From an uncultured Candidatus Saccharibacteria bacterium (lineage in GTDB: Bacteria > Patescibacteriota > Minisyncoccia > Minisyncoccales > CAZJYT01), in assembly GCA_964550325.1 (NCBI GenBank), contig CAZJYT010000001.1, forward strand, positions 1 to 47,524: a stretch of 47,524 nt of DNA, in the 5' to 3' direction. Under the pieces are notes generated by a model. It had not been told where the DNA came from. It saw only the letters and a program-made list of their open reading frames with translations, and did no database searches. A program made the translations under genes and the position numbers. This document shows, in pieces, positions 302-18,700 of this stretch; the stretch's first letter is position 1; every line of letters starts with the position of its first letter.

Positions 302-726
302 TGGCTTCTGATAAATGTCCAAGATTTAATAATTGTAATGCTCCTTTATGTCCTTTAGATAAAGAGAGTTTAGAATTTGGAATTTGGTATCCTGATGAAG
401 AAATTTGTCAGAATAGGAACTTCTCAAAACTTCGTTGGATTAGAAATCAGAAGAAGATACTTAAAGTAAATGCTCCAAAAGACAGATACTTTAGTTTCAC
501 AATGCTTAAAAGAAAGTGTGTTATCGGAAAGAAGATGCAAGGATTAGACCCAGATGAGCCAGAAGGACCTCAACTAGAAAGATGGTTAAAACAGCATCCA
601 GAAAGAAAGCCCTTATCTGAAAAACAGAAACAAGTCATAGCAAAACTGAAGACCTCTTTAAAAACCCCAATCCGCCGAGGTTTTAAAGGTCAAAAACCCC
701 AATCTAACGATGTTTTACAGACCTAA
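301..726 (+). CDS. Cys-rich putative metal-binding protein
   Basis: 141-aa ORF with N-terminal CPRFNNCNAPLCPLD...EEIC cysteine cluster. The last ~60 nt of the ORF are formed by repeat copy A (665-749), so the C-terminus is uncertain. Confidence 0.5.
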   Translation: MASDKCPRFNNCNAPLCPLDKESLEFGIWYPDEEICQNRNFSKLRWIRNQKKILKVNAPKDRYFSFTMLKRKCVIGKKMQGLDPDEPEGPQLERWLKQHPERKPLSEKQKQVIAKLKTSLKTPIRRGFKGQKPQSNDVLQT

Positions 727-749
727 TATCCTTTAGAGGTATAAAACAT
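665..749 (+). repeat. 85-nt repeat, copy A (two CCAATC boxes 32 nt apart, then AGACCTAATATCCTTTAGAGGTATAAAACAT)
   Basis: Ungapped alignment to 7989-8073 gives 73/85 identical positions. Ends 1 nt before ATG 751 and supplies its GAGGT ribosome-binding site. Confidence 0.85.
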
Positions 750-750
750 T

Positions 751-945
751 ATGAAGGAAGAAAAAGTTATCAAAAATCCATTTAAAGACCTTAAAAACGA
801 ACTTCTTTCTCAATTTACCTTTTCAGACTTGAAAAATCCAGTAAAGAGGATAAAAATAAAAGAAACCTTACAGACTTTAGATGATTGTTCTACCAGATAT
901 CTTGATCTTTTAAGAAGATTAAAAAACCTAACAAGGTATTTCTAA
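751..945 (+). CDS. hypothetical protein (64 aa)
   Basis: ORF with GAGGT 9 nt upstream of ATG. No recognisable motif. Confidence 0.5.
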   Translation: MKEEKVIKNPFKDLKNELLSQFTFSDLKNPVKRIKIKETLQTLDDCSTRYLDLLRRLKNLTRYF

Positions 946-1058
946 TGGCTTGGGAGTTCCTTGAAGTATCTGTCTTCTTTCTCTTTCTTTCTGTAGTTGT
1001 AGAGATTTTGAAGGCAGACGAGGGCTCCTCGGCCATAAAAGGTCTAATTATACTTTAA
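945..1058 (+). CDS. unannotated small hydrophobic peptide (37 aa, MAWEFLEVSVFFLFLSVVVEILKADEGSSAIKGLIIL)
   Basis: Hand-translated. Start overlaps the upstream stop (TAATG) and it ends 4 nt before the next ATG, helping fill an otherwise non-coding gap. Below the ORF-track size cutoff. Confidence 0.35.
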   Translation: MAWEFLEVSVFFLFLSVVVEILKADEGSSAIKGLIIL

Positions 1059-1062
1059 ACCT

Positions 1063-1215
1063 ATGAGAAAATACGGAATAAAAAGAGGAGCAGGGAAAGG
1101 AAAGGGAATGCCAGGAGGAGGAAGAAGAAATAAGAATATTGGTCCCTGTAGATTTGGAGGCCCTGGTTTTGGAAAAGGAGGAGGCAAAGGTAAAGGTAAA
1201 GGAAGACTAACTTAA
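1063..1215 (+). CDS. unannotated Gly/Lys/Arg-rich 50-aa peptide (MRKYGIKRGAGKGKGMPGGGRRNKNIGPCRFGGPGFGKGGGKGKGKGRLT)
   Basis: Hand-translated. Ends 2 nt before ATG 1218. The 71-aa minus-strand ORF 1061-1276 is its low-complexity shadow. Composition is reminiscent of DUF5320-type G/R-rich small proteins (from memory, unverified). Confidence 0.45.
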   Translation: MRKYGIKRGAGKGKGMPGGGRRNKNIGPCRFGGPGFGKGGGKGKGKGRLT

Positions 1216-1217
1216 TT

Positions 1218-1580
1218 ATGAAGAAGATTAAATTAGACCAACCCATAAAAGACATCCAGGGAAGAAATTTAACCACAACTGATACTAAAGGAAAGAGAAA
1301 AAACGCAACTCTCAGAGATTATCTATTACTCAGATTAGGAAGTAAGTTTGAGATTCTTCAGGAGAAAGAATACTTTTGGACATACGATTTAGGAATAAAG
1401 ATTGCTGATCCTAAAAACAAAGAAATAGAATTAAGTGAAGATCAGGTTGAGTTTCTTAAGAGGATAATTAAAAACAACAAGGCAAAAATAGTTAAAAACA
1501 CCCCAATGGGTCCTCAAGAGGAGGAAAGTTATCTCTTTTCTCCTTACGAAGTAGGTCAGATTCTAAAACTTCTCTCCTAA
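1218..1580 (+). CDS. hypothetical protein (120 aa)
   Basis: ORF tightly packed between neighbours. No motif recognised. Confidence 0.55.
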   Translation: MKKIKLDQPIKDIQGRNLTTTDTKGKRKNATLRDYLLLRLGSKFEILQEKEYFWTYDLGIKIADPKNKEIELSEDQVEFLKRIIKNNKAKIVKNTPMGPQEEESYLFSPYEVGQILKLLS

Positions 1581-1581
1581 T

Positions 1582-2073
1582 ATGGAAAAAGCAGATCAGA
1601 TATTCAAATATGCTTTAGCAATTCAGAGGCTAAAGAAGGATATTGCTTCTAACTATTACGAGATAGGGAAAATCTTAAGAGAAATCAAGGAAAAGAAGTT
1701 ATACAAATTCTACGGTGAGCATATTAGAACCTTTGAAGATTTATTGGAAGAAGAAGAATTCTCTTTTAAAAGAAGAACTGCCTATTACCTGATTGAGATT
1801 TCAAAATTCCCTAAAGAAATCATACTTCAGATAGGAGGTTATGAAAGAACAGTAAGACTTTTACCCTATTTAAAGAAAGACCAAACAATAGCAGAGAAAG
1901 TAAAAGGATTACCAAGGAAAGAATTTGATAAGTTTTTATTGGAACTAAAAGGAAAAGATGGAGATTGTCTTCACGAAGAAAAGGAATACTTTATCCTTGT
2001 TAGGTGTAAAAGATGTAAAAAGACATTGAAATTTCAGAGGATAAATAAAGAAGATATCAATATTGAGATATGA
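1582..2073 (+). CDS. putative DNA-binding protein with C-terminal C-H...CxxC zinc ribbon (paralog of 7487-7954)
   Basis: 163 aa. Helical N-terminal part (FEDLLEEEEFSFKRRTAYYLIEISKF). The C-terminus GDCLHEEKEYFILVRCKRCKKTLKF aligns with GCAHTFELVKFCPRCKKIFRL of ORF 7487-7954. Confidence 0.5.
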   Translation: MEKADQIFKYALAIQRLKKDIASNYYEIGKILREIKEKKLYKFYGEHIRTFEDLLEEEEFSFKRRTAYYLIEISKFPKEIILQIGGYERTVRLLPYLKKDQTIAEKVKGLPRKEFDKFLLELKGKDGDCLHEEKEYFILVRCKRCKKTLKFQRINKEDINIEI

Positions 2074-2243
2074 AAAAGTTAAATAAAACCAAAAGATTAA
2101 AAACGCAAACTAAAATAAAAAGGTCTCAAAAAGCACAAGATTTTAAATGTTTAAGTCTTGATAACCTTATGGGTTTTACATTCTACCTTTTCTTTGTTGT
2201 TCTTTTTCTTATTTTTCTTTGTGAACTTTTAAGAAGAATATGA
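2070..2243 (+). CDS. unannotated 57-aa tail-anchored membrane protein
   Basis: Hand-translated: MKKLNKTKRLKTQTKIKRSQKAQDFKCLSLDNLMGFTFYLFFVVLFLIFLCELLRRI. ATGA start/stop overlaps at both ends (2070-2073, 2240-2243) exactly fill the 166-nt gap. Confidence 0.5.
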   Translation: MKKLNKTKRLKTQTKIKRSQKAQDFKCLSLDNLMGFTFYLFFVVLFLIFLCELLRRI

Positions 2244-2536
2244 AAAAAGAAAAGCAAAAAGGATACAAATTAGAGCACTATCTGGAAACACTCTTTAGAA
2301 AGAAAAGAATTGCCTGTCAGAGATTAGGACAACCAGGACAACCAGATTTGTATTTCAAAGACTTGAAGATGACAGGAGAGTGTAAGAATAAAAAGAACCT
2401 AAAGACCATCTATGATATGAAAGGAAATAAGGATTTTCTCTTTCTAAAGTGGAGTTCAAGGAAAATCAGAAAGAAACCAATTTTAGTGGTAATGGAGTTA
2501 AAAACCTTTCTAAAAATCATAAATAAAAGGTCTTAA
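2240..2536 (+). CDS. PD-(D/E)XK nuclease, Holliday-junction-resolvase (Hjc)-like
   Basis: 98 aa. E12 ... GQPD(36-37) ... ECK(47-49) spacing fits the E / PD / (D/E)xK pattern of Hjc-type resolvases. Confidence 0.45.
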   Translation: MKKEKQKGYKLEHYLETLFRKKRIACQRLGQPGQPDLYFKDLKMTGECKNKKNLKTIYDMKGNKDFLFLKWSSRKIRKKPILVVMELKTFLKIINKRS

Positions 2537-2554
2537 GTGCAACATATTGCACAT
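2535..2554 (+). promoter_or_regulatory. conserved stem-loop element, copy 1 (AAGTGCAA-CATA-TTGCACAT)
   Basis: Matches the 20-nt consensus in 3' register with one base missing from the 5' arm (AA-GTGCAA vs AATGTGCAA). Starts at the stop codon of ORF 2240-2536 and is followed by AATTTTT. Lies 18 nt upstream of ATG 2572. Confidence 0.6.
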
Positions 2555-2571
2555 AATTTTTAAAACAAACT

Positions 2572-3333
2572 ATGGAAAGGGAAGAAATTTTAAAACAAAT
2601 GGAGGAACAAAGCAGAGAAGATGAATTTAGAGTTCCTCCAGTAATACTCTATCCTATTTTAAGATTAAACGGTCAAACAAATAAGTTTTATCTAATAGAG
2701 TTTGATAAGGAAGGAAATAAAAGTGTAGCAGAGGTTCAGAGACCTTTGAAAGGAGTTATCCTTACTTCTAGAAGGAAATTGTTTAGTTTTACCAGAGAGG
2801 AATTACTTTTCTCTAACGAATATCTAGGAACCAAAGAAGAAATTACCCTGTTTAGACAGAATAGGAAAACAAAAAAGGTTCAGAGAATTGATAAAGGATT
2901 AGAAGACCCGATTAGAGAGAAATACCCGAATTTGAAGGTTCAATTTGTTCTCTATGTGCTTTTTAGAAACAAGTTGGTAAAGTTACCAGTAAAAGGAGCC
3001 TCTTTATCTCACCTGTTTGACTTCTACAGAGAGTTTTCTTCAGGAGAACACGTTTTTGAGTATAATACCATCTTTGATTCTCAAGAGGAGGAAAGTGAGT
3101 TAGGAAAATACTTTGCTTTAACTTTTACTAAAGGAGAGAAACTTCAATTAGAAGATTTAAAGATTGCTGCTGAAGAACTAAATAAACTCTATCAGGATGA
3201 GATGTTAAGACAGAAATACTTTAAGAGTTTAGAAACAGTTCAAGAAACCGAAGAAGAAGTTTCAGAAACCCCAACCGAAACTCCTAAAGAAGAAGATTTA
3301 GAAAAAATTCCCATTGTAGAAGAAAATGAATAA
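2572..3333 (+). CDS. hypothetical protein, possible ssDNA-binding protein
   Basis: 253 aa. Strongly acidic C-terminal tail (EEEVSETPTETPKEEDLEKIPIVEENE), as in phage SSBs, and sits next to nuclease genes. Function is weakly supported. Confidence 0.3.
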   Translation: MEREEILKQMEEQSREDEFRVPPVILYPILRLNGQTNKFYLIEFDKEGNKSVAEVQRPLKGVILTSRRKLFSFTREELLFSNEYLGTKEEITLFRQNRKTKKVQRIDKGLEDPIREKYPNLKVQFVLYVLFRNKLVKLPVKGASLSHLFDFYREFSSGEHVFEYNTIFDSQEEESELGKYFALTFTKGEKLQLEDLKIAAEELNKLYQDEMLRQKYFKSLETVQETEEEVSETPTETPKEEDLEKIPIVEENE

Positions 3334-8077: not shown

Positions 8078-9961
8078 TCAATCCATTTCCTGTTCAATTT
8101 CCATCTTCTTTGCCTCTTTTAGAGAAACAGGTTCCAGTTTCTTCTTTCCCAAAGCAATCTTCTTCATTAAACTTAAAGGAAAGCACTTTTTAGCCTTCCA
8201 GAAGTAAAAGAACAAGCCATAAACAGGTTTTCCTGCTTCTCTTTGCTTTTTAGTCATTTCATTCTTATTTAGTTTCCTTTGAACCAATCTATAGTAGTAT
8301 CTTCCATTTAGATGTTTTCCCAAAAAGGTAATGTCATAGAAATCCAGTTCCCTCCTATGAATAACACAAGGAGCAAAGTAATCTCCAGGTAAGGCAAGCA
8401 TAACTGCCATCTCATTTTTGGTTGGATTTCCTCTTTCTCCAGGTTTAGCCCAAAGTTTCTTCACCTTCATCCAATACAAAACATCTCTCCTTTCCCAAAT
8501 CCTTTCCCCTTGTGTTGCTTCAAAGTGTTTTAAAAGGAATTCTTTTAATTTTTGCCCTTTAGGATGAAGAACTTGATAACCTTTGACTGATTGTCCTGAA
8601 ATACAGTAAATTCCATTTCTTCTAACAATTATTAAACCAGTTGGGACTGTGACAGAATAGAGTTTTCCTTTATAGAGTTCAATACTCCAATGTTTAGGTC
8701 TGACTTTTGGATACAGCCCTTTCTTTTGGGCAAAAAATAAACGGTATATTAAAGAGCCTTTTCCTGAAATTCCAGAAGAGATAGTTACCGAGTAACCAGC
8801 CAAAATTCCAATTATTTGGAGTTGGTCTCTCAAAACTTTTGAAGAGGTGTAAATTGTAAAGCCGCTACTCTTTTTATTTGGAGTCCCATCTCCCATTCTG
8901 TATCCTTTTAAGAAACTTTGAAGACTCTTTCTATCGGCTTTGAATACATAATCAGGAATAACTTTCTTTCCTTTTCCTTTTAGTTTATATTTCTTAAATT
9001 CTAAAGCCAATTTTTTGTCTCTGATTACAAAAACTCTTACCTTGTCTTTGTTTTCATACTCTTTTAGATTTGAAAAATTTTGTTTCTTTAATAACTTTCT
9101 TGCATAATCAATCTTAGTTTTTTGAGATATCTGTAATCTGTAACCATCTCTAGAATTCGCGTACACACCTCCTTCCGCAAACCAAAAACCGAGAAATTCA
9201 AACCAATCTGGATTTTCTTTTTTCCCTTTCCATTTAATCTCTCTCTTAAAATGTCCAACTTTTCCAAAGGCTTCAGCCGCTGAAAGAATTTTAAACCTTT
9301 TTTGATTTGAGGGATTCCAACGCCTTTTTCCGTCTTTAGAATAGACCCAATATCTTGGAGAAAAATACAAACGATGTGAAGGATTTACTAACAAATCTAC
9401 GTGTCTGTGCTTTATCCTAATAAGTTCTCCATTGTTTTCATAAACAATAATATCAAGAGGTTTTACATAGGAAAGAAATCCATCCTTAGAAACCTGAGCA
9501 ACTTTATCTTCTTTTGAAAGATCTTTAAAATATTTCCAACCTTTTTCAGTCAGTATTTCAGTTTTTTCATCAAAACAACCCTGGACCTTTCTATCTGGTC
9601 TCCCTTTCCATGGTGCAGTAAAGAAGGTCAACCCAAACCATGTAGTTGCTCCTTTAGGAAGAATTCTTAAATCATAGTGATACTTTCCCTCCATTTCCTT
9701 TGCTGGATCTTTACCTTCTTTTATGATTTTACACATTTCCTCATAAACCTCATCTACATTCTTAAATGTTCCTACTGGAAACCATCCATGTAGTTGTAGA
9801 GTGTATCTTCCAGGTATAAAGTCTATAAATTCAGCATGGAAAGGATCTTTTAGAGCAATCTTTAAAGCCTCCTGCAAAAGAGCAGACTTGGAAGGAATAT
9901 CAGTTCCTTCATAGACCTTGTATCCCTTCTTTGTAGGAACAAGTTTAAGTCTTTTTGCCAT
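8078..9961 (-). CDS. intein-containing protein; spliced extein ~298 aa of uncertain function (HYDLR motif faintly LigD-phosphoesterase-like)
   Basis: 627-aa ORF. Extein residues 1-128 and 458-627 flank a 329-aa Hint+LAGLIDADG insert. Extein has YTLQLHGW...KYHYDLRILPKG. Confidence 0.6.
   Translation of the reverse strand: MAKRLKLVPTKKGYKVYEGTDIPSKSALLQEALKIALKDPFHAEFIDFIPGRYTLQLHGWFPVGTFKNVDEVYEEMCKIIKEGKDPAKEMEGKYHYDLRILPKGATTWFGLTFFTAPWKGRPDRKVQGCFDEKTEILTEKGWKYFKDLSKEDKVAQVSKDGFLSYVKPLDIIVYENNGELIRIKHRHVDLLVNPSHRLYFSPRYWVYSKDGKRRWNPSNQKRFKILSAAEAFGKVGHFKREIKWKGKKENPDWFEFLGFWFAEGGVYANSRDGYRLQISQKTKIDYARKLLKKQNFSNLKEYENKDKVRVFVIRDKKLALEFKKYKLKGKGKKVIPDYVFKADRKSLQSFLKGYRMGDGTPNKKSSGFTIYTSSKVLRDQLQIIGILAGYSVTISSGISGKGSLIYRLFFAQKKGLYPKVRPKHWSIELYKGKLYSVTVPTGLIIVRRNGIYCISGQSVKGYQVLHPKGQKLKEFLLKHFEATQGERIWERRDVLYWMKVKKLWAKPGERGNPTKNEMAVMLALPGDYFAPCVIHRRELDFYDITFLGKHLNGRYYYRLVQRKLNKNEMTKKQREAGKPVYGLFFYFWKAKKCFPLSLMKKIALGKKKLEPVSLKEAKKMEIEQEMD
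8591..9577 (-). mobile_element. intein with LAGLIDADG homing-endonuclease domain (aa 129-457)
   Basis: Block A CFDEKTEILT (Cys1 codon verified at 9575-9577), block B LLVNPSHRLY, LAGLIDADG motifs FLGFWFAEGG and FLKGYRMGDG, block F/G LIIVRRNGIYCISGQ followed by Ser+1 (codons verified at 8588-8593). Confidence 0.8.
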
Positions 9962-9962
9962 A

Positions 9963-12545
9963 TCACACCTCTATAAGAACTACATTAATAAATCCCGTAT
10001 CAGGAAGATAGGTAAGTCTTGGATAGTTAGAGCGAAACATTACGCTATGAACATCAGTTCCTAAATAGAACTCTCTTTCATTTGTTGAAATCTCAATTCC
10101 CAAAACAGGAACAAGGTCTTCTGCACTTCTATCCTTATAAGCAGAATTGCTTACTTTAGCAGAAACCTTATTCCCAGTTTCAGAGGTAATAAGACTACAG
10201 AGTTGTTCAAGAGTTCTATCTTCAGTTGAGATTGTCTTTTCAGTCCCATTCATGTTTATCTTAATACAGAGATTTGTCCTATCTATGGTTACCTTACACT
10301 TTCCACTTCCAAAATAGGCAAGTTTTATCCCTGGAAGGTTTATGTTTCTGAATCCTACAAAGTTCAAAGCCTTTTGAGAAGAAGCAGCATTAAAAAGATC
10401 TTGCCAGATTTCTCTTAATTCCTTTCCTTCGTATCTAAAGGAAGTAGATTGAGTTAAACTTTCAGATGTTTCTGAATCATAAACACTTCCATCTCTCTTT
10501 TCAGCAATAGTCCCTAAAATAGTAAAGTGAAACTCTTTCTTTCCAGTTTTAGAAGACTCTAAAATGTATGTCCAAGTCAAATCACTTACCAATGGAGTAT
10601 TACTTCCATCTTCGCTCTCTAAAACTATTCCTATCTGAAAACTTGTATCTTTTACTGGATTTTCTAAATCAAACCTCGTATCTTCTCCAGGAGAGAATTC
10701 TTTTTCATATAAAGGAGTAAGTTCTTTAGAAGGTCTATAATATCTCAGTTTTATCTTTGTTCCTTGAGGAAAATCTTCTTGAAAACTCTCAATAGATTTA
10801 ACAAGTTTATTCACCTTTCTCATTCCAGCATCAAAACGAGAAGTAATAAGATAGCCACTTGAGATATATTTGTTTTCATTTCTCTTATAGAACTGTCCAT
10901 TGGTATCAACTACATAAAGATTATCCAAATAGGCAAAGATGTAACTGGGGGTAAAGGAGAGTTTTTGAACCAAAGACCATTGCATAGGAAACTTCTTATA
11001 ATCCATATTGCATCTTGCCAAATACCAGTCTGTTTCATCTTTTACCAAAGCAAAGATATCAGTTCCTCTGGTAGCAATCCCCTTACAAGAGGTAAACTTA
11101 AAGAAGGGATTAAGTTTATGGATGTTAGTAGGATAGATGTTGTATCCACTTACAAAGAAAATTCCCAGTTTCTCAACAGAGAAAATGAGAAAAGAAGAAA
11201 ATCTATCATTTTTAAAGTTATTGATTGAGGTCTCGCTACTGAAATCAGCAATCTTAACTCCTAATCCTCCACTTAAAAGAGTAAAAAGAGAACGAGAAGT
11301 AGCAAAGAATATTTGATTATAGGTCTTTGCTGCTCTTATGATCTGTCCCTCTGATTCAGGTAAGGCATAAAGGAATCCTGTTTCAGGCAAAAAGTTTTCT
11401 CCATCATCAGTTCTCTTTAGTCCTTTATCAAAGAATCCATACCCTAAATCTCCAGCATCAACCTCTAAAAAAGAAAGTCCTGTGCTTTCTCCTTTAACAA
11501 TAACGGAATCAACATACATTGTTCCTGTTCCTGAACTATTGGTATTTAAAATCCTTATCTCCTTTATAGCAGAAAAGATGATAGAGGTTATTCCTCCTCC
11601 TGTTATTTCTACATCATCTATCCAAACCTGGAACTTATGGCTTGTTCCATCCCAACTTACCTTAATCTTATACCAGGTATCAGCAGTATAGGTCTTATCT
11701 GTAGGAAAGTTTTTATAACTTCCATCATAATACTTAAAATGCCCATCATTAGCAGCAACAATAAAATAAAGAGAAACATTATCAGAAGACAGAGGAATAA
11801 AGGGATAATGCCATTTGTTTGTTTCTCCAAATCTAAAGTATCCTTCAAAACTTCCTTTATTAGACAAAGCAATCTTCTTTTTAAGATAATAAGGAGCTCC
11901 TGAAGCCTTTGCTGCATATTGCCCCTCATAAACAACAGAACCCTGAACTTGCCAGCCTTCCTTTGCATCCCATTTGTTTAGATTTCCATCTTCAAAGTCA
12001 TCCTCAAATTCAATTTCCAGAAAGGTTATATCAGTTTCTGTATAGTTTCCCTCTTTTTTAGTTCTCTTTAGAAGTTTTGAAGTTCCTCTACAGGCATATT
12101 GGTTTCCTCTCATCTCATAGAAGTCAGTAATTCCTGTAAATCCTGTTCCTAAAGAGGTAAGAGAAGAACCATCCCAAAGATAGATATCTCCATCTTCAGT
12201 AGCAATATGAATGCCATCAGAGAGTTGTTTTGCTACTCTAACAGAACTTCCTACTGAAATTCCTTCCAGTTTCTCTAAAGGTCTTTCCAGTTTCAGTTCT
12301 CTGGGAATGGTAATATCCAATCCCACTCCAAAGGCATATTCAGAAGGCCTTTCTAAATAGAGTTGTCCAAATCCATCAGAGAATTCTTGTTGTCCATTTG
12401 TTTGCCAGAAGTCTAAATCAGAATAGGCCAGTCTTCCAGTAGCAAATCTGGTCCCAAACAAAGGTGCTGGGGTCTCTCTATAACTGTTCTTATCTATCAT
12501 ATACCCCTTATAATCCAAAAGAATGTCGTATCTTTGATTATCCAT
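9963..12545 (-). CDS. large virion (tail/nozzle/receptor-binding candidate) protein with inserted LamG/ConA-like lectin domain
   Basis: 860 aa. aa ~178-352 (11490-12014): FEDDFEDGNLNKWD...YAAKASG...WYKIKVSWDG...FQVWIDD...MYVDSVIV is typical of Laminin_G_3 jelly rolls. Flanks look beta-rich. Confidence 0.5.
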   Translation of the reverse strand: MDNQRYDILLDYKGYMIDKNSYRETPAPLFGTRFATGRLAYSDLDFWQTNGQQEFSDGFGQLYLERPSEYAFGVGLDITIPRELKLERPLEKLEGISVGSSVRVAKQLSDGIHIATEDGDIYLWDGSSLTSLGTGFTGITDFYEMRGNQYACRGTSKLLKRTKKEGNYTETDITFLEIEFEDDFEDGNLNKWDAKEGWQVQGSVVYEGQYAAKASGAPYYLKKKIALSNKGSFEGYFRFGETNKWHYPFIPLSSDNVSLYFIVAANDGHFKYYDGSYKNFPTDKTYTADTWYKIKVSWDGTSHKFQVWIDDVEITGGGITSIIFSAIKEIRILNTNSSGTGTMYVDSVIVKGESTGLSFLEVDAGDLGYGFFDKGLKRTDDGENFLPETGFLYALPESEGQIIRAAKTYNQIFFATSRSLFTLLSGGLGVKIADFSSETSINNFKNDRFSSFLIFSVEKLGIFFVSGYNIYPTNIHKLNPFFKFTSCKGIATRGTDIFALVKDETDWYLARCNMDYKKFPMQWSLVQKLSFTPSYIFAYLDNLYVVDTNGQFYKRNENKYISSGYLITSRFDAGMRKVNKLVKSIESFQEDFPQGTKIKLRYYRPSKELTPLYEKEFSPGEDTRFDLENPVKDTSFQIGIVLESEDGSNTPLVSDLTWTYILESSKTGKKEFHFTILGTIAEKRDGSVYDSETSESLTQSTSFRYEGKELREIWQDLFNAASSQKALNFVGFRNINLPGIKLAYFGSGKCKVTIDRTNLCIKINMNGTEKTISTEDRTLEQLCSLITSETGNKVSAKVSNSAYKDRSAEDLVPVLGIEISTNEREFYLGTDVHSVMFRSNYPRLTYLPDTGFINVVLIEV

Positions 12546-15500
12546 ATTTCTTCTTTATTTCTTCGATTATCTTTTTCATCTTGGTTTTTCTCCAAATAGC
12601 AAATTTAGGTAACCATTTCTTCCATTCTTCTAATGTCCCCCCAGAAGCAAGGTAGATTTCTTTAGCCAAAGCCAAAGTATCTGGTTTTCCAATAAGAACT
12701 GTGGTTTGAGTCTTTGAAGGAACCTTAAGGTATTTTGCTTTCTGGCTTTTAGGTCTTGGAGCATACCACCCTATAGAACCATCAGGTCTGATAGTAATGT
12801 GTTGAACATTTACCCTTATAACATCTCCTGGTTTTGCTTTTACCTCTTCTTGAGCGTATGTCTGTCCAATATAGGTTCCATCTCCTAAAACACAATGGAA
12901 GATAGGTAATCCTGTTTTTGTTCTCTCAACTCCTATGACTTTAGCATCAATGTCATAGAGTTTCTTAAATTTGAAAGATAGATGGGTAGCCCAGTAAGAA
13001 GCCTCTGTAGATCTGATAAAGGCTCCTTCATTAGACTGCATTTTCTTTATAGCATCAGGAATCTGATTTCTCTTTACTACCACAGAAGGAGTTTTAAAGA
13101 CATATTTGGATTTTAGGTTCTTTAAGAGTTTGCCTAAAAGGAAACTTCTATCACTGAAGGGTTTATTTGATAAGTCTTCTCCATCTAAATAGAGTAAATC
13201 CCAAACAGGAAATCTTACGCTTTCCAATTCTTCTTTAGTGGGTTTCTTTTTAGAATGGAGATAACCTACAAGGTTTTGTCTTGGTATCTTTTCAGCAATG
13301 ATTTCTCCCACTATTAGAAAGTCGTGTCTTACCTTTGATAAGGTTTTCACTATCGGCTCTATTCTTGAGTTAGAAATCTTTCCTCCTGTTTCTGAAAAGA
13401 ATCTAATGTCTTTTCCTTTCTTCCAGCAGTAAGCAAGCATCCCATCCCACTTGGGACTAACATCATAGGTTCCTTCAGGAACAATCTCTTTTAGTCTCTC
13501 AATACTAAAGACCTCATTGGAAGACAGAGCCTTTTTTTCAGGTTTATGAGGAGGAGGAACCACAAAAGGCTTTATTTTTATCTTTTTTAAATCTCCTTCT
13601 TGAATTGAAGCCTCTCCTGTAACTTTTATTAGTTCTTCTTTAAGTTCCTCAATCAATTTCTTATTTTTATCTTCTCCTTTTTGGAAGGTTTGAACTCCTT
13701 TTTTAAGTTTGTATTCAATAGATTTTGGGAATGGATAGAAGGTAAAGAGATAGTAATAGAGAGTTCTTTGAGGAAATCCTTTCCACCATCTCTTTGCCTC
13801 TTTTCTTGAAACCCTGTGCCATTTCTGTGTCTTATCAAAGTCTAAATTCCTGAATATAGCCTCTATCTTAATTAAACCATAAACCTTATCTCCTGCTAAT
13901 CTGAATATCTTTCCCACAATGTCAAACTTTTTGCTTTTTACAATCAAAAGTTTATCTCCTTTTAGAATCATTTTAGCGTGAGGTTCTACAAGGTAAAGAA
14001 TAGGAAGGTTTTCATAAACAGATTTGTAGGGAATAGTTTTTCTGTATTTTAAAGTAAGACGAATAAGATTTTGTATCTCTTTCAGTTTTTCTTCTTTAGA
14101 AGAAGCCAAGGTTTCCTCTTCTTTCTTCTTCTCTTCTACTAGTTTTCTTATTCTTACCAAATCAGAGTAATCTGCCAAAGCAAAGGAAACCCTTACCACA
14201 TCCTTTGGTAAAACTCTTACTTCTATTTTCCCTTCAGGAGTTTTAACCAGTTCGTAAATATCAGTTTGAGATTTAACTCTCTTTTCAATTTGAGAAATAA
14301 TGTCTTCTCCTTTTATTTCCTGTGCATATTTTTCTTTAAGTTCCAATTCTTGTCTTAACATCTCCTCTCTTTCTTTCTCTATTTCTCTTATCAAGGTATT
14401 TACTCTCTCCTCTCCAAGTTCTCTTAAGGCTCTCCTTTTAGAAAGCAACCCTCCTTTGTATTTTCTTAAGACCAATGCTGATAGCTTCTCTGGATCTTCA
14501 TTACTAAATCCAATAAACTTCTCTTTTGGTCTAAAGATTGCCTTATTAAAGTATTCTGAAATGGTTTTGCCATCAAAGGCAAGTTTATTCTCTTTTAGGA
14601 ACTTATTTAGGTAATACTCATCTATTTCTTCAAAGAATCTCAATAAAAGATTTGCTTTTGACTTTATTCTCCTTAAGGCTCCAGAGAAAACCAAACTCAT
14701 TGCTCCTTTTTCTCTTACAGAGCCTCCTTTTCCTAAAAAGTAATCTAAAATCCCTATATGCTTTTGAATTTCAAGGTCTTGATCTTGAATAAGTTTTAGT
14801 TCTTCTACTGGAATTTCTGGAGGTTTAATAACATCTATATTCCCATCTCTACTCTTTTCCAAAACAATGTTTCGAAAGTTCTCTCTTAAGGCAAAGTTTA
14901 AAAGATCCTGATTTATCCTTGCTTCTTTATCTATGGTTATTATTCCAGAACACATTCTCTTAAAGTGGTTGCTTAAAAACTCTTTAAATTCCTGATTCTC
15001 TTTAAGTGTAGGATAGATTTTCAAAACAAGAGGAATAGGATAAAATGTTTCCAATGTCTCTCTATCAGCACAAACCCTAAATGGGTAATCTCCATCAAAA
15101 GGAAACTCTTTTACAATCTCATTTAGTCCTTTAGGAATCCAGTATTTCTTTCTATCATCCTTGGAATAAACAACAAAAACACAAATCTCATCATCAGGCT
15201 TGTAATAACTTAAAATTCTGTTTTGTTTGTCTTTTTCTAAAAGAGAAGCGAATTTAGAAGCAGTAAGATAGGTTTTTCTTACTACAAAAGGCTGTTTTTC
15301 TAAAAAAGGTTCTTTTGGATGTCCTACAAAGAATTCAGAGGGTTTTATTATCTCATATTTGTCTTTATTAAGGTAAGCAACAACTAATCCCTCAGTAAGG
15401 AGATTTATAGTCAGGTTCTTTATAAGAGAGTCTTTTTTTGATTTATGATGTATTTCCTTTAAGCGGAGTTCTAAAAACTCGGCAAAAGAGAGATAGGGTT

Positions 15501-15771
15501 CTTGTTCTGGTTCTGTTTCTACATCTATTACCGATTTGCTATTGTCAATTTCTTCAGCAAAGTTAAGAATCAGATAGTTAATTGGATTTTGCTTGAATAT
15601 CTGATCTATAGAGAGTTTAGAATCAGGTTCATAGACACTTGCTGGGCTCTCAAAAAAGTTTGCAAGGTCTGGGTTTCCAAAAAGAAAAGTAAATACAGCC
15701 TGCTTTATGGTCTTATTATAGGCTAAACTTACAGACTCATTTTTTATTACCTCTGAGACTATTTTTTCCAT
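12538..15771 (-). CDS. multidomain protein: N-terminal ~560-aa domain (portal candidate by size and position only) + ASCH-like domain + ATP-dependent DNA ligase
   Basis: 1077 aa. Ligase motifs are listed in the domain feature. ASCH-like aa ~585-700 (LYLVEPHAKMILKGDKLLIVKSKKF...YGLIKIEAIF...YYYLFTFYPF). 3-nt gap to the giant ORF and 8-nt overlap with the next ORF. Confidence 0.7.
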   Translation of the reverse strand: MEKIVSEVIKNESVSLAYNKTIKQAVFTFLFGNPDLANFFESPASVYEPDSKLSIDQIFKQNPINYLILNFAEEIDNSKSVIDVETEPEQEPYLSFAEFLELRLKEIHHKSKKDSLIKNLTINLLTEGLVVAYLNKDKYEIIKPSEFFVGHPKEPFLEKQPFVVRKTYLTASKFASLLEKDKQNRILSYYKPDDEICVFVVYSKDDRKKYWIPKGLNEIVKEFPFDGDYPFRVCADRETLETFYPIPLVLKIYPTLKENQEFKEFLSNHFKRMCSGIITIDKEARINQDLLNFALRENFRNIVLEKSRDGNIDVIKPPEIPVEELKLIQDQDLEIQKHIGILDYFLGKGGSVREKGAMSLVFSGALRRIKSKANLLLRFFEEIDEYYLNKFLKENKLAFDGKTISEYFNKAIFRPKEKFIGFSNEDPEKLSALVLRKYKGGLLSKRRALRELGEERVNTLIREIEKEREEMLRQELELKEKYAQEIKGEDIISQIEKRVKSQTDIYELVKTPEGKIEVRVLPKDVVRVSFALADYSDLVRIRKLVEEKKKEEETLASSKEEKLKEIQNLIRLTLKYRKTIPYKSVYENLPILYLVEPHAKMILKGDKLLIVKSKKFDIVGKIFRLAGDKVYGLIKIEAIFRNLDFDKTQKWHRVSRKEAKRWWKGFPQRTLYYYLFTFYPFPKSIEYKLKKGVQTFQKGEDKNKKLIEELKEELIKVTGEASIQEGDLKKIKIKPFVVPPPHKPEKKALSSNEVFSIERLKEIVPEGTYDVSPKWDGMLAYCWKKGKDIRFFSETGGKISNSRIEPIVKTLSKVRHDFLIVGEIIAEKIPRQNLVGYLHSKKKPTKEELESVRFPVWDLLYLDGEDLSNKPFSDRSFLLGKLLKNLKSKYVFKTPSVVVKRNQIPDAIKKMQSNEGAFIRSTEASYWATHLSFKFKKLYDIDAKVIGVERTKTGLPIFHCVLGDGTYIGQTYAQEEVKAKPGDVIRVNVQHITIRPDGSIGWYAPRPKSQKAKYLKVPSKTQTTVLIGKPDTLALAKEIYLASGGTLEEWKKWLPKFAIWRKTKMKKIIEEIKKKYG
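12742..13569 (-). other. ATP-dependent DNA ligase catalytic + OB domains (aa ~735-1010 of ORF 12538-15771)
   Basis: Motif I SPKWDG (Lys774), III FLIVGEII, IIIa FPVWDLLYLDGEDL, IV EGAFIRS, V LSFKFKK, then an OB-like region (DAKVIGVER...GDVIRVNVQHIT...GWYAPRP). Confidence 0.85.
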
Positions 15772-15774
15772 AAA

Positions 15775-18700
15775 TTAGTAGAAAGAGCCAATATAACCTA
15801 TGAGAGGCTTCTTAAAGCTTCTTCCTTCTAAAAATGCCAATTCTTTGATTGCTCTGTCAAGTTCCTTTTTAAGTAAAGGAAGTCTTTCCAAGTCTTTCTC
15901 TTTAAGTCTATTTATAGCAATCATCCTTTGTTCAAAGTATCTTTCCCAATCAGCCTTATTCCAGTTTCCTTTATCTCTCCATATCTTGTATTTCTTAAAG
16001 ATTCTTCTCACTCTCTCTTCAACATCACTGGGTAAATTGTATCTTCCAAATTTACTTATCTTCTCTAAAGCCCATCTTAAATCTGGTTGGAATCTCATCT
16101 CTATTCTTTCTCCTTCTTCAATAAATCTTCTTAAGGGATATTTAACAAGATAAGACTTTTCAGGATGAACAGTAAGATACTTAGACTTTGCCCAATCAGG
16201 AAGACTTCTGAAATAGAGAACCCCAAACAAAGGATTTTCCTTTGCTAATCTTATCCAGTTTTCCATTAGCATCCTGTATATCTTTTCCTTAAACCAGTAT
16301 CCTTCATCTGTTTCTGGAACCTTCCAGAACTCCTTAAAGAGTTTCTTACTTACCAATCTACTTAACAACTCACAAGGCTCCTTCTGAAGTATTTCTCTTA
16401 CCTCATTTACCCTCTTTTCCCAAGGTTTGAACCTTCTTCTGTCAAAGAAATAACTTCTTGGTAAAGCCCAAATCTCCCAGAAGTCTAAAAGTTCTGGATG
16501 CTTGTTAAGAAATTCTTCTCTCTCTCCTAAAGTCTCCTTTCTAAAGTATTCCTCCTGTAGGTCAATGAGTTTTGAGAAAAGAGGATGCTGCTTCTTTCTA
16601 AAGTATTCCTTTAGTTCTGGGTTTTCTTTTAGATAGTTCTTTCTTTCTTCTAAAGTTCCTAAAGAGAAGTAGTGTTCTATCATTCTTTCTAATGTGGTTT
16701 TTACTCCTTCCTCTTTCTTGAGATATCTAAAGATTTCTATATTCTCCTCTCTAAATCTTTCTCTCATTAAATAGAACCTTCTTAAACTCTCTAAACTCTT
16801 TCTATCAGGTTTAGATTTTACATCAGGAGCCTCTAAAAGAAGTTTCTGATACTGATAATACTTCTCATAAGCCTCTCTTCTCTTTGGTTCCAGATCTTCC
16901 TTAAAGGATTCTCTTAATTCTGGATGTTCTTCAAGGAAAAGGAACCTTTTAAGATTGTCTTCAAATGTTTCTTTGGGCAAACTGAAATACTCCATTCTAT
17001 CCAAATAGAGTTGCTTCTTCTCTGGATGTTTTTCAAAGAATCTCTCTCTGTATTTCTTATTGTCTTTTCTCCAGAAGTAAGCCTGCCATAAGTCCCAATT
17101 CTCTATCCTTGCCAATGCAGAAAGTCTCTTCCAGAATAGCAGATAGTTGTATGTATCTGGATCCTTCTTTTTAAGTTCCTCTCTTAAAGGCTTAAATTCA
17201 GGCTTCCAGAAGAGTTTAAATCTCTCATCTATCTTTCCTTCTTTGAAGAGTTTATAGAATTCCTCGTAATACTGAATCTTCAATCCTCTTAAGTATGGAT
17301 CTTTCTTTAGATAGGTTTTCTTAAACATAGGAGAAGTTTTAAGGAAAGCCTCTATAAATTCAATAAAGTTTTCCTTTTTTAGAAGTTTATTCCAAGTCTT
17401 ATAGTATTCTTCCTTTTCAGGATGAGTTTTGAAATACATTTCTCTTTCCTTCTTATAGGAAGAATCATAGAAAACTCTCTTCCAGTTTTTCCAATCTCCT
17501 TTGAAAGCAAAGTTAATCCATCTTCCAAGCCATTCATAATATCTTTTCTTTTCTGGATGTCTCTTATAGTATCTCTCTCTGTATTTCTTATTCCTCTCTG
17601 CAAAGAACTCATTTCTCCATCCTTCCCAGTTCTCTTTTTCTGCTAAAAGGGATAATCTTCTCCAAAAGAGTAGATAATTATACTCCTCTGGCTTTCTTTT
17701 CTTCAAATCTTCTCTCAATTCTTTAAATCTATCCTCCCAAAAGAGATCAAAGGTTTCATCTACCTTTCCTTGATCAAGGAGTTCTATAAACCTCTTATAA
17801 TATTCAATCCTTAGACTTCTAATAGCAGGATCTTTCTTAAGATAGAGTTTTCTAAACCATCCTTCAGTTGCTAAGAAGGCTCTAACATAGTCTTCAAACT
17901 CCTTTGTCTTAATGATTTTAATCAATTCAGCCCACTTTTCATAGTATTTTTTCTTCTGTGGATAGTGCGAAAAGTAGGTTTCTCTCTGTTTTTTGTATTT
18001 AGAATCCCAGAATACTTTCTTCCATCCTTCCCAGTCTTCTTTAGAAGCAAAACTCACCCATTTCTGTATCCATTCGTAATATCTCTTCTTTTCTGGATGC
18101 CTCTTAAAGTAAGTTTCTCTCTGTTTGTTGTATTTTCCAGACCAGAAGATATTTCTCCAGGCATTCCATTCATCTCTTGAAGCCTCTCTCATCCAGTTCA
18201 TTACCCAATCCAAATAAGCAAAGGATTCTGGCTGGTCTTTAGCAAAAGCCTCTTTTGCCTTCTTATTCCTTGGATTAAACCACCATCTTAAGGCAAAATT
18301 GGTAAAGATTCCTCTCTTTCGGTTTTCATTATCCTTCTTAAATCTCCTTAAGAGTTCTCTCTTAAAGGGATAATAGAGTCTCTTTAAGGGATGATTAAAG
18401 AAGTAATAACTGATAAACCAAGATGGCATCTGATAGAACCTCTCATAGTAGTCATATCCTCCAGTTCTTTCCATCTCTCTTATCAATTTTTCCCAGAGTT
18501 CTAGGTATTTCTTAATCCTTCTCTCAAATTCCTTATTATAGGCTGCTTTTCCTCTTTCCCATCTTGCCTTTTCTTCTTTTGTAAGAACCTGGTCTAAATA
18601 GCGGAGAGCCTTTTCATAGATTCTTCTCTTTTCTTCTTTTGGAAGTAAAGCAAAATCAGAGGGGAAGAAACTAAAGAATCCTGCTAACTTTATTGAGTAA

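What the first reader, a model, noticed from the sequence alone, without database searches (positions are those of the whole stretch)
8591..9577. LAGLIDADG intein with atypical splice-junction residues (C-terminal Gln, NPSH block B)
Seen in sequence:
- A 329-aa insert starts with Cys (CFDEKTEILT) and carries two LAGLIDADG motifs.
- It ends ...VRRNGIYCISGQ followed by Ser.
- The usual C-terminal His-Asn is Gly-Gln, and the block B TxxH is NPSH.

Established knowledge: a few inteins with C-terminal Gln are known (for example P. abyssi PolII and the Chilo iridescent virus RNR intein). They splice slowly or by variant chemistry.

The host gene is the last gene of the virion block, which is an unusual home for an intein. 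Inteins usually sit in replication or repair enzymes or in terminases.
Basis: partly seen in the sequence, partly recalled or inferred. Interest (0 to 1): 0.6.

Follow-up and report, generated by a model that had tools for sequence, protein, structure and literature searches.

The report
Gln-ending intein in phage repair gene
A phage gene for a probable DNA-end repair enzyme is interrupted by a real, well-preserved, mobile self-splicing protein insert (intein) that ends in glutamine instead of asparagine, which is a rare but already known way for inteins to cut themselves out.

Summary
The 627-aa ORF at 8078..9961 (-) carries a 329-aa LAGLIDADG intein at 8591..9577. It runs from Cys129 to Gln457 and is followed by Ser458. 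Intein-less alleles about 95% identical in DNA lack exactly these 987 bases, so the junction cannot be moved to an Asn.

The intein belongs to a large phage/DPANN/CPR intein family (CYDEKTEILT...VRRNGxxxWCGN|S/T/C):
- The penultimate Gly is the family norm (94 of 107).
- The terminal Gln is a recurrent minority state (12 of 107, mostly in terminase genes).
- The block-B Asn (NPSH, normally TPxH) is unique among 125 relatives.

Nothing else is degenerate. Only 1 of 33 strongly conserved columns deviates, both endonuclease motifs are intact, the intein protein is identical in five assemblies, and the exteins are under purifying selection. I read it as an active class 1 intein that finishes by Gln cyclisation.

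The "unusual home" reading does not hold. The host protein is a divergent LigD 3'-phosphoesterase-like enzyme beside a ligase-domain protein, and phage structural genes are known intein homes anyway.

Close relatives, some in this same host gene family, end in arginine. This scan has already noted Arg-ending inteins on other DNA.

The parts
8078..9961 (-). Precursor ORF, 627 aa plus stop: N-extein, intein, C-extein
   Evidence: identical or near-identical 627-aa proteins in five assemblies
9578..9961 (-). N-extein, aa 1-128. Carries the LigD-PE-like motif TLQLH58GW...KYH95YD97LR99 and ends ...RKVQG
   Evidence: H58, H95 and D97 invariant, R99 nearly so, in 15 homologues
8591..9577 (-). Intein, 329 aa, Cys129 to Gln457: HINT splicing domain with an inserted LAGLIDADG homing endonuclease
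   Evidence: exactly absent from the intein-less alleles L003 and P0147
9548..9577 (-). Block A, CFDEKTEILT, with the Cys1 nucleophile (codon 9575-9577)
   Evidence: Cys1 invariant in the family
9374..9385 (-). Block B, NPSH. His is invariant; Asn replaces the Thr seen in 115 of 125 relatives (Ser in 8) and is unique to this intein
9170..9196 (-). LAGLIDADG motif 1 (LGFWFAEGG) with the catalytic Glu
8885..8911 (-). LAGLIDADG motif 2 (LKGYRMGDG) with the catalytic Asp
8591..8665 (-). Blocks F and G: KLYSVTVPTGLIIVRRNGIYCISGQ. F:4 is Ser, F:13 is Gly, the penultimate residue is Gly and the terminal residue is Gln (CAA, 8591-8593)
8588..8590 (-). Ser +1 (TCA), the C-extein nucleophile
   Evidence: +1 is Ser, Thr or Cys in all 107 relatives
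8081..8590 (-). C-extein, aa 458-627, starting SVKGYQ. K and G of VKGY, and HRR...D...G...GR, are invariant in the host family
8576..8590 (-). C-side half of the presumed homing site. Together with 9578-9592 it holds 10 of the 47 nucleotide differences from the intein-less allele L003
9578..9592 (-). N-side half of the presumed homing site
12538..15771 (-). Operon neighbour, 1077 aa, with an ATP-dependent DNA ligase adenylation domain at aa 768-929. It is the likely functional partner of the host protein
   Evidence: same linkage in the related phage contig L028

Best explanation
This is an intact, mobile class 1 intein with an embedded LAGLIDADG homing endonuclease. It interrupts a phage gene for a divergent LigD 3'-phosphoesterase-like protein, two residues before an invariant Lys-Gly.

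Inferred mechanism (no step observed here):
1. Cys129 makes the N-S acyl shift. The invariant block-B His196 helps, with Asn193 standing in for the usual Thr.
2. Ser458 attacks the thioester to form the branched intermediate.
3. The terminal Gln457 cyclises to a glutarimide and releases the intein. There is no penultimate His, as in the rest of this family.
4. An O-N shift joins ...RKVQG to SVKGYQ..., giving a 298-aa enzyme.

Shown here: the exact boundaries, family membership, the fold, intactness, and presence/absence polymorphism. Inferred from established intein chemistry: splicing itself and Gln cyclisation (Pab PolII and CIV RNR inteins; PMC4031507). The endonuclease spreads the element into intein-less alleles.
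For: - Boundaries: intein-less alleles lack exactly aa 129-457.
- Family: over 100 homologous inteins in unrelated host proteins share block A, block B His, VRRNG and a G(N/Q)|S/T/C ending, with identical spacing.
- Fold: the model has pLDDT 94.5 and matches TliVMA, PI-SceI and PI-PfuI.
- Not decayed: only 1 of 33 columns conserved at >=85% deviates, against a family median of 2. Both endonuclease acidic residues are present.
- Not an error: the intein protein is identical in five assemblies from NCBI, ENA and JGI.
- The host gene is kept functional: extein dN/dS is 0.13 against the intein-less allele and 0.18 between two intein-bearing alleles.
- Recent homing: intein dS is 0.005 against extein dS 0.04 between alleles. 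Ten of 47 differences from the empty allele cluster in the 30 nt around the insertion point.
- A Gln ending works in this family: 11 diverged Gln-ending relatives form a clade in terminase large subunit genes, which are essential.
- C-terminal Gln splicing has been shown experimentally for other inteins (PMC4031507).
Against: - No biochemical evidence for this intein.
- The two nearest inteins at the same site (P0003 second intein, P0128) end in Gly-Asn|Thr. Gln and the block-B Asn are therefore both derived on this one branch and could be the first steps of decay.
- Asn to Gln needs two nucleotide changes through His or Lys.
- The alleles compared are so close that selection on the intein itself cannot be measured: 1 synonymous and 0 non-synonymous changes.
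- Whether the host protein is essential to the phage is unknown.
Confidence: 0.8

Rival explanations
1. The intein is splicing-dead or crippled. The Asn-to-Gln and block-B Thr-to-Asn changes inactivated it, and the 329 residues stay as a tolerated insert, or the host protein is lost.
For: Both atypical residues sit at catalytic positions and are derived relative to the closest same-site inteins, which have T..H and G-N|T. An intein's N and C termini lie close together, so an unspliced insert can sometimes be tolerated.
Against: - Every other conserved position is kept.
- The endonuclease motifs are intact.
- The exteins of intein-bearing alleles are under purifying selection.
- The insert sits at the start of a barrel strand, two residues before an invariant Lys-Gly.
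- Gln-ending relatives persist in essential terminase genes.
- Gln endings splice in tested inteins (PMC4031507).
Confidence: 0.12
2. The intein splices, but the slow Gln step makes it conditional. Maturation of the repair enzyme would then be gated by temperature or redox state, a regulatory use and not a purely selfish element.
For: Gln endings slow step 3 in the Pab and Mma PolII inteins, and conditional splicing is documented for other inteins (PMC4031507; PMC4513877 abstract). An earlier, unchecked note of this scan places the phage in hydrothermal sediment.
Against: No evidence here for any switch. The CIV RNR intein splices better with Gln than with Asn (PMC4031507), so a Gln ending does not by itself mean slow splicing. 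The presence/absence polymorphism among near-identical phages argues that the phage does not need the intein.
Confidence: 0.06
3. The junction is misplaced or the Gln is an assembly error, and the true intein ends in Asn.
For: None found. An Asn lies 8 residues upstream, in VRRNG.
Against: The empty-site alleles fix the junction. The spacing from VRRNG to the end is 7 residues, as in 86 Asn-ending relatives. The same sequence appears in five assemblies.
Confidence: 0.01

Closest known systems
Class 1 inteins with a C-terminal Gln: Pyrococcus abyssi and Methanoculleus marisnigri PolII inteins, Chilo iridescent virus RNR intein (Mills 2004; Amitai 2004; reviewed in PMC4031507)
   Same: Cys1, block-B His, terminal Gln followed by a hydroxyl or thiol nucleophile. 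The expected chemistry is Gln cyclisation in step 3.
   Different: No detectable sequence relationship beyond the HINT fold. This one carries a LAGLIDADG endonuclease (the Pab PolII intein is a mini-intein), has Gly instead of the penultimate His, has Asn at block B position 7, and sits in a different host protein.
Endonuclease-bearing inteins with solved structures: TliVMA/PhoVMA (7QSU, 7QSS, 7QST), PI-SceI (1VDE), PI-PfuI (1DQ3), PI-TkoII (2CW7)
   Same: Two-domain architecture, HINT plus LAGLIDADG. These are the best Foldseek matches, E 1.5e-18 to 4e-10.
   Different: 12-17% sequence identity. Those inteins end in Asn.
The uncharacterised metagenomic intein family CYDEKTEILT...VRRNGxxxWCGN, found in ThyX, PurD, GTP cyclohydrolase I, RNR, Mcm and terminase genes of phages, DPANN archaea and others
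   Same: The window's intein is a clear member (E down to 1e-53, 30-47% identity) and shares blocks A, B, F and G and the penultimate Gly.
   Different: 80% of members end in Asn. This one ends in Gln and is the only one of 125 with Asn at block B position 7.
LigD 3'-phosphoesterase domain (Pfam PF13298; PDB 3N9B, 3P43, 3P4H), as a comparison for the host protein
   Same: - The H...HxDxR motif.
- The top three relevant fold matches.
- hhalign probability 80%, E 1.4e-5 over the C-terminal half.
- Homologues fused to a ligase domain score on the full LigD_N profile.
- A ligase-domain neighbour gene.
   Different: About twice as long, with large insertions. It fails the Pfam threshold. The EDHP/His84 region is not conserved. 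Activity is untested.

Membership tests
Intein (HINT splicing domain, class 1) | N-terminal Cys or Ser nucleophile within block A | tested here: met
   Cys129 in CFDEKTEILT. This Cys is invariant in the aligned relatives.
Intein (HINT splicing domain, class 1) | Block B TxxH (Thr B:7 and His B:10) | tested here: inconclusive
   His is present and invariant. Thr is replaced by Asn, unique among 125 relatives. Thr B:7 is an assisting residue, not an obligatory one (PMC4031507).
Intein (HINT splicing domain, class 1) | C-terminal cyclising residue (Asn, or the known alternatives Gln or Asp) | tested here: met
   Gln457 aligns with the terminal Asn of 86 relatives and the Gln of 11. Its position is fixed by the empty-site alleles.
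Intein (HINT splicing domain, class 1) | Cys, Ser or Thr at +1 of the C-extein | tested here: met
   Ser458
Intein (HINT splicing domain, class 1) | Penultimate His (G:6) | tested here: not met
   The residue is Gly, as in 94 of 107 family members. This feature is known to be dispensable in many inteins (PMC4031507), so it does not define membership.
Intein (HINT splicing domain, class 1) | HINT fold | tested here: met
   AF2 model pLDDT 94.5. Foldseek matches TliVMA, PI-SceI and PI-PfuI at E 1e-18 to 1e-12.
Intein (HINT splicing domain, class 1) | In-frame insertion that is precisely absent from homologous alleles | tested here: met
   L003 (95-96% nucleotide identity) and P0147 (298 aa) lack exactly the 987 nt / 329 aa.
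Intein (HINT splicing domain, class 1) | Protein splicing activity | not testable with these tools
   Needs expression followed by SDS-PAGE or mass spectrometry.
LAGLIDADG homing endonuclease (two-motif, monomeric) | Two LAGLIDADG motifs, each ending in a catalytic Asp or Glu | tested here: met
   LGFWFAEGG and LKGYRMGDG. Pfam LAGLIDADG_3 scores 23.9 bits on the isolated insert, over the 22.5 cut-off. I-DmoI-type fold matches reach E 1e-6.
LAGLIDADG homing endonuclease (two-motif, monomeric) | Site-specific cleavage of the intein-less allele (homing) | not testable with these tools
   Indirect evidence only: presence/absence polymorphism, differences clustered at the insertion site, and lower dS in the intein than in the exteins.
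LigD 3'-phosphoesterase superfamily (host protein) | Match to Pfam PF13298 above the gathering score | tested here: not met
   The window's exteins give no hit. One of 15 homologues scores E 0.042. The ligase-fused homologues P0139 and P0140 score E 7.6e-4 and 9e-5 over the full profile, but below the cut-off.
LigD 3'-phosphoesterase superfamily (host protein) | PE beta-barrel fold | tested here: inconclusive
   The model of an intein-less homologue has pLDDT 80.5. The best PDB matches are 3P43, 3N9B and 3P4H, but with weak E-values of 0.016-0.44 and target-normalised TM 0.49-0.63. hhalign gives probability 80%, E 1.4e-5 over 54 columns.
LigD 3'-phosphoesterase superfamily (host protein) | Metal and phosphate site His...His-x-Asp-x-Arg | tested here: met
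   H58, H95 and D97 are invariant and R99 nearly so in 15 homologues. The same pattern appears in the canonical LigD_N sequences of A5. The correspondence was judged by eye and is not covered by the hhalign match.
LigD 3'-phosphoesterase superfamily (host protein) | 3'-phosphate / 3'-ribonucleotide removal activity | not testable with these tools
   Needs an enzyme assay.

The most novel reading that the evidence does not exclude
The window's Gln-ending intein may belong to a phage intein lineage whose C-terminal cleavage residue is evolutionarily free (Asn, Gln or Arg).

- Its nearest relatives in the same host gene family, and a sister group of the Gln-ending terminase inteins, end in Arg followed by Thr.
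- Their boundaries are exact, and they use different Arg codons.
- If those Arg-ending inteins splice, the lineage uses a step-3 chemistry that has not been described.
- Gln is one nucleotide from Arg (CAA to CGA), so it would be the stepping stone from Asn.
Probability: 0.3. Interest if true: 0.8.

Novelty: new member of a known kind. Interest (0 to 1): 0.4.

Why it matters
On its own this adds one more natural Gln-ending intein. It is unusually clean for experiment: the boundaries are exact, matched intein-less alleles exist, there is a same-site Asn-ending relative for comparison, and there is one unique block-B substitution (Thr to Asn) to test for compensation.

It also identifies a new intein host, a rare phage LigD-phosphoesterase-like family with four different insertion sites in about 300 residues.

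The larger prize lies with the relatives. Arg-ending inteins occur in this same gene family and in terminases. Together with this Gln form they give a natural Asn/Gln/Arg series for asking how the last step of protein splicing can be done.

Tried and rejected
- Sequence search of the whole precursor and of a 15-member extein profile against PDB chains found nothing useful.
- Pfam and NCBIfam on the precursor gave only sub-threshold intein and LAGLIDADG hits. Pfam and PHROGs on the isolated exteins gave nothing meaningful.
- The word-indexed homologue search with the C-extein plus 20 intein residues found only 3 proteins. The exhaustive representative search was needed to find intein-less homologues.
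It worked with the tighter alignment A2.
- I considered that the terminal Arg of the relatives might reflect a reassigned codon. Rejected: the codons are CGA in L028 and CGT in L024.
- I considered a shifted junction because some intein-less alleles read G-Q-VKGY. Rejected: Gln cannot serve as the +1 nucleophile, the shift would add a residue relative to all homologues, and L003 reads G-S-VKGY.
- I tried to measure selection on the intein itself. The alleles are too close: 1 synonymous change in 987 nt.
- A full-text search for papers on inteins with a C-terminal arginine found none.
Full report
**1. The observation**

The minus-strand ORF at 8078..9961 encodes 627 aa. Residues 129-457 (window 8591..9577) begin CFDEKTEILT and end VRRNGIYCISGQ. 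The last codon is CAA, and the next residue is Ser (TCA). Two LAGLIDADG motifs lie inside the insert: LGFWFAEGG and LKGYRMGDG.

**2. It is an intein**

Curated libraries see it only weakly:
- Pfam LAGLIDADG_3 scores 23.9 bits on the isolated insert.
- NCBIfam intein_Nterm is sub-threshold.
- PHROG families that contain inteins match the first 178 residues at 8e-14.

The large protein database gives 191 hits. Apart from five host-gene homologues, the hits cover only the insert (about 53% of the query). They lie inside unrelated proteins: ThyX, PurD, GTP cyclohydrolase I, anaerobic and class I/II RNR, Mcm, terminases, methyltransferases and epimerases. All share C[YF]DxxTE[IV]LT at one end and VRRNG plus seven residues ending in G-N before Ser, Thr or Cys at the other.

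An AlphaFold2 model built on 70 of these sequences has mean pLDDT 94.5 and pTM 0.92. Its best PDB matches are the endonuclease-bearing inteins:
- TliVMA, E 1.5e-18.
- PI-SceI, PhoVMA, PI-PfuI and PI-TkoII.
- I-DmoI for the endonuclease half.

**3. The boundaries are exact**

An exhaustive search with the C-extein found only 25 representative proteins among 1.84 billion. Several of them are intein-less.
- Cluster members include P0147, which at 298 aa is exactly 627 minus 329.
- The metagenome contig L003 is 95-96% identical in DNA on both sides. It reads ...AGAAAAACCATGGGG|AGTGTCAAAGG..., where the window reads ...AGAAAGGTCCAGGGT|intein|TCAGTCAAAGG....

Removing Cys129 to Gln457 therefore regenerates the uninterrupted protein (...G|SVKGYQ). 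The Gln is not an assembly error either: five assemblies from three archives encode an identical intein.

**4. Which residues are really atypical**

I aligned 125 family inteins, 107 of them with a resolved C-terminus.
- Penultimate residue: Gly in 94 of 107, so Gly is the family norm.
- F:4: Cys 76, Ser 22, Asp 9. Ours is Ser.
- F:13: His 56, Gly 37. Ours is Gly.
- Terminal residue: Asn 86, Gln 12, Arg 9.
- Block B His: invariant.
- Block B Thr: Thr in 115, Ser in 8. Asn occurs only in this intein.

The genuine departures are therefore the terminal Gln, a recurrent minority state, and Asn at B:7, which is unique. At the 33 columns conserved in at least 85% of members, this intein deviates once, at B:7. 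The family median is 2 and the maximum is 9. It is one of the better-preserved members, not a decaying one.

**5. Phylogeny**

In a FastTree phylogeny:
- The window's intein pairs with the second intein of P0003 (support 0.99, 47% identity). That intein sits at the same site and ends G-N|T.
- The fragment P0128 carries another same-site intein that also ends G-N|T.

The Gln and the block-B Asn are therefore derived on this branch.

The other 11 Gln-ending inteins form a clade with four Arg-ending ones (support 1.0). All are inserted at one site (..VRN|C...|TYxQLKDT) of proteins that match the PHROG terminase large subunit family. Terminase is essential, so Gln endings are compatible with function in this family. 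[quoted passage not shown]

**6. Mobility and selection**

Against L003, 10 of the 47 extein differences fall in the 30 nt around the insertion point. Elsewhere the average is about 1.3 per 30 nt. This is the usual mark of a homing-endonuclease target or co-conversion tract. Two other intein-less alleles even carry Gln at the +1 position (G|QVKGYE), which could not support splicing.

Between two intein-bearing alleles, L001 and L004:
- Extein dS is 0.040 and dN/dS is 0.18.
- The intein shows a single synonymous change (dS 0.005).

Against the intein-less allele, extein dN/dS is 0.13. The host gene is therefore kept under purifying selection in intein-bearing phages, and the intein looks younger than its flanks. 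Both points fit an active, homing, splicing element. The numbers are small.

**7. The host protein**

The exteins have no Pfam hit. Other evidence points to a LigD 3'-phosphoesterase-like enzyme:
- Two homologues of about 1050 aa (P0139, P0140) carry the same domain fused behind an ATP-dependent DNA ligase domain. There they score on the full LigD_N (3'-phosphoesterase) profile at E 7.6e-4 and 9e-5.
- The family keeps the pattern H...HxDxR, with H58, H95 and D97 invariant and R99 nearly so, like canonical LigD_N.
- hhalign of the family against three canonical LigD_N sequences gives probability 80%, E 1.4e-5 over the C-terminal half.
- An AlphaFold2 model of an intein-less homologue (pLDDT 80.5) has the archaeal and Pseudomonas LigD phosphoesterases as its best PDB matches: 3P43, 3N9B and 3P4H. 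The E-values are weak.

The gene two places upstream in the operon (12538..15771) has a DNA ligase adenylation domain (E 1.9e-13). The same linkage recurs in a related phage contig.

I conclude, at moderate confidence, that the host is a divergent DNA 3'-end-healing enzyme working with that ligase. This is a normal intein niche. Phage portal, minor capsid and tape-measure genes are in any case documented intein hosts (bioRxiv 10.1101/2025.01.02.630785).

**8. Mechanism proposed**

I propose standard class 1 splicing:
1. Cys129 performs the N-S acyl shift, assisted by His196, with Asn193 replacing Thr.
2. Ser458 performs the transesterification.
3. Gln457 cyclises to a glutarimide, without a penultimate His.
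4. An O-N acyl shift completes the ligation.

The endonuclease mediates homing. None of the chemical steps is shown here. They are inferred from family membership and the literature.

**9. Outside the window**

The host gene family is an intein hotspot with four insertion sites in about 300 residues. P0003 and P0004 each carry two inteins.

Five of these inteins, and four terminase inteins, end in Arg followed by Thr.
- For one of them, a near-identical allele (P0124) lacks exactly the Cys...Arg segment.
- The Arg codons differ, CGA and CGT, which excludes a codon reassignment.
- F:13 is never His or Gly in these inteins.

This scan has already noted Arg-ending inteins in PolD and phage NrdJ on other DNA (AI notes, unchecked by me). 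No paper on them was found. Gln (CAA) is one transition from Arg (CGA), so the window's intein may represent the intermediate state. This is speculation.

**10. Verdict**

The intein interpretation is supported. The claim that the intein sits in an unusual home is not supported, and the atypical-residue claim holds only in part: the Gln ending and the block-B Asn are real departures, but the penultimate Gly is the family norm. This is a new member of a known kind, with a new host family and one unique block-B residue. Interest is moderate, and is raised mainly by the Arg-ending relatives.

Noticed in passing
Relatives only: P0003 (L024), P0004, P0005, P0006 (L028 7030-8895, L029), P0007; terminase proteins P0041, P0047, P0055, P0058: Nine inteins of the same family end in Arg followed by Thr. 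P0124 is a near-identical allele of P0004 that lacks exactly the Cys...Arg segment. The Arg codons are CGA and CGT. F:13 is never His or Gly in this group. Four of the nine sit in terminase large subunit genes.
   Followed up: partly
Host gene family (P0003-P0007, P0128; window 8078-9961): There are four different intein insertion sites within about 300 residues: FTLQ|LHGW, TAP|TWFG, WFGL|TxF and KVxG|TVKGY. Two proteins carry two inteins each. All eight inteins form one clade (support 0.93).
   Followed up: partly
L003 237-242; P0147, P0149: The intein-less allele L003 has an in-frame TAG where the invariant Trp60 codon should be, which is either a pseudogene or a sequencing error. The intein-less alleles P0147 and P0149 carry Gln at the position that must be Ser, Thr or Cys for splicing.
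   Followed up: no
G000:C25, locus L035 303-2856 (-): A DNA methyltransferase (SPPYW|CYAEGHEILT...IIFSGN|SLRIY) carries an intein of the same family. Its endonuclease region is interrupted by a frame break between two ORFs (303..1883 and 2131..2856).
   Followed up: partly
G016:C56, locus L033 990-2492: A canonical LigD_N 3'-phosphoesterase of a related small-genome bacterium is itself split by an Asn-ending intein (NFQG|CFAF...ILVSN|SIPRG), at a different site from the window's.
   Followed up: partly
G000:C51:910-1212 (locus L031): The same genome bin encodes a canonical LigD_N domain (E 5e-26) in a 308-aa open frame, separate from the phage's divergent version.
   Followed up: no
P0139, P0140 (about 1050 aa, metagenomic): These proteins fuse a DNA ligase adenylation domain with the host-family phosphoesterase-like domain in one chain. 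Their ligase part matches window protein 12538-15771 at E 6e-26.
   Followed up: partly
window 15775-31137 (-): The only Pfam hit of the 5120-aa ORF is a peptidoglycan-binding domain (PG_binding_1) at residues 27-59.
   Followed up: no
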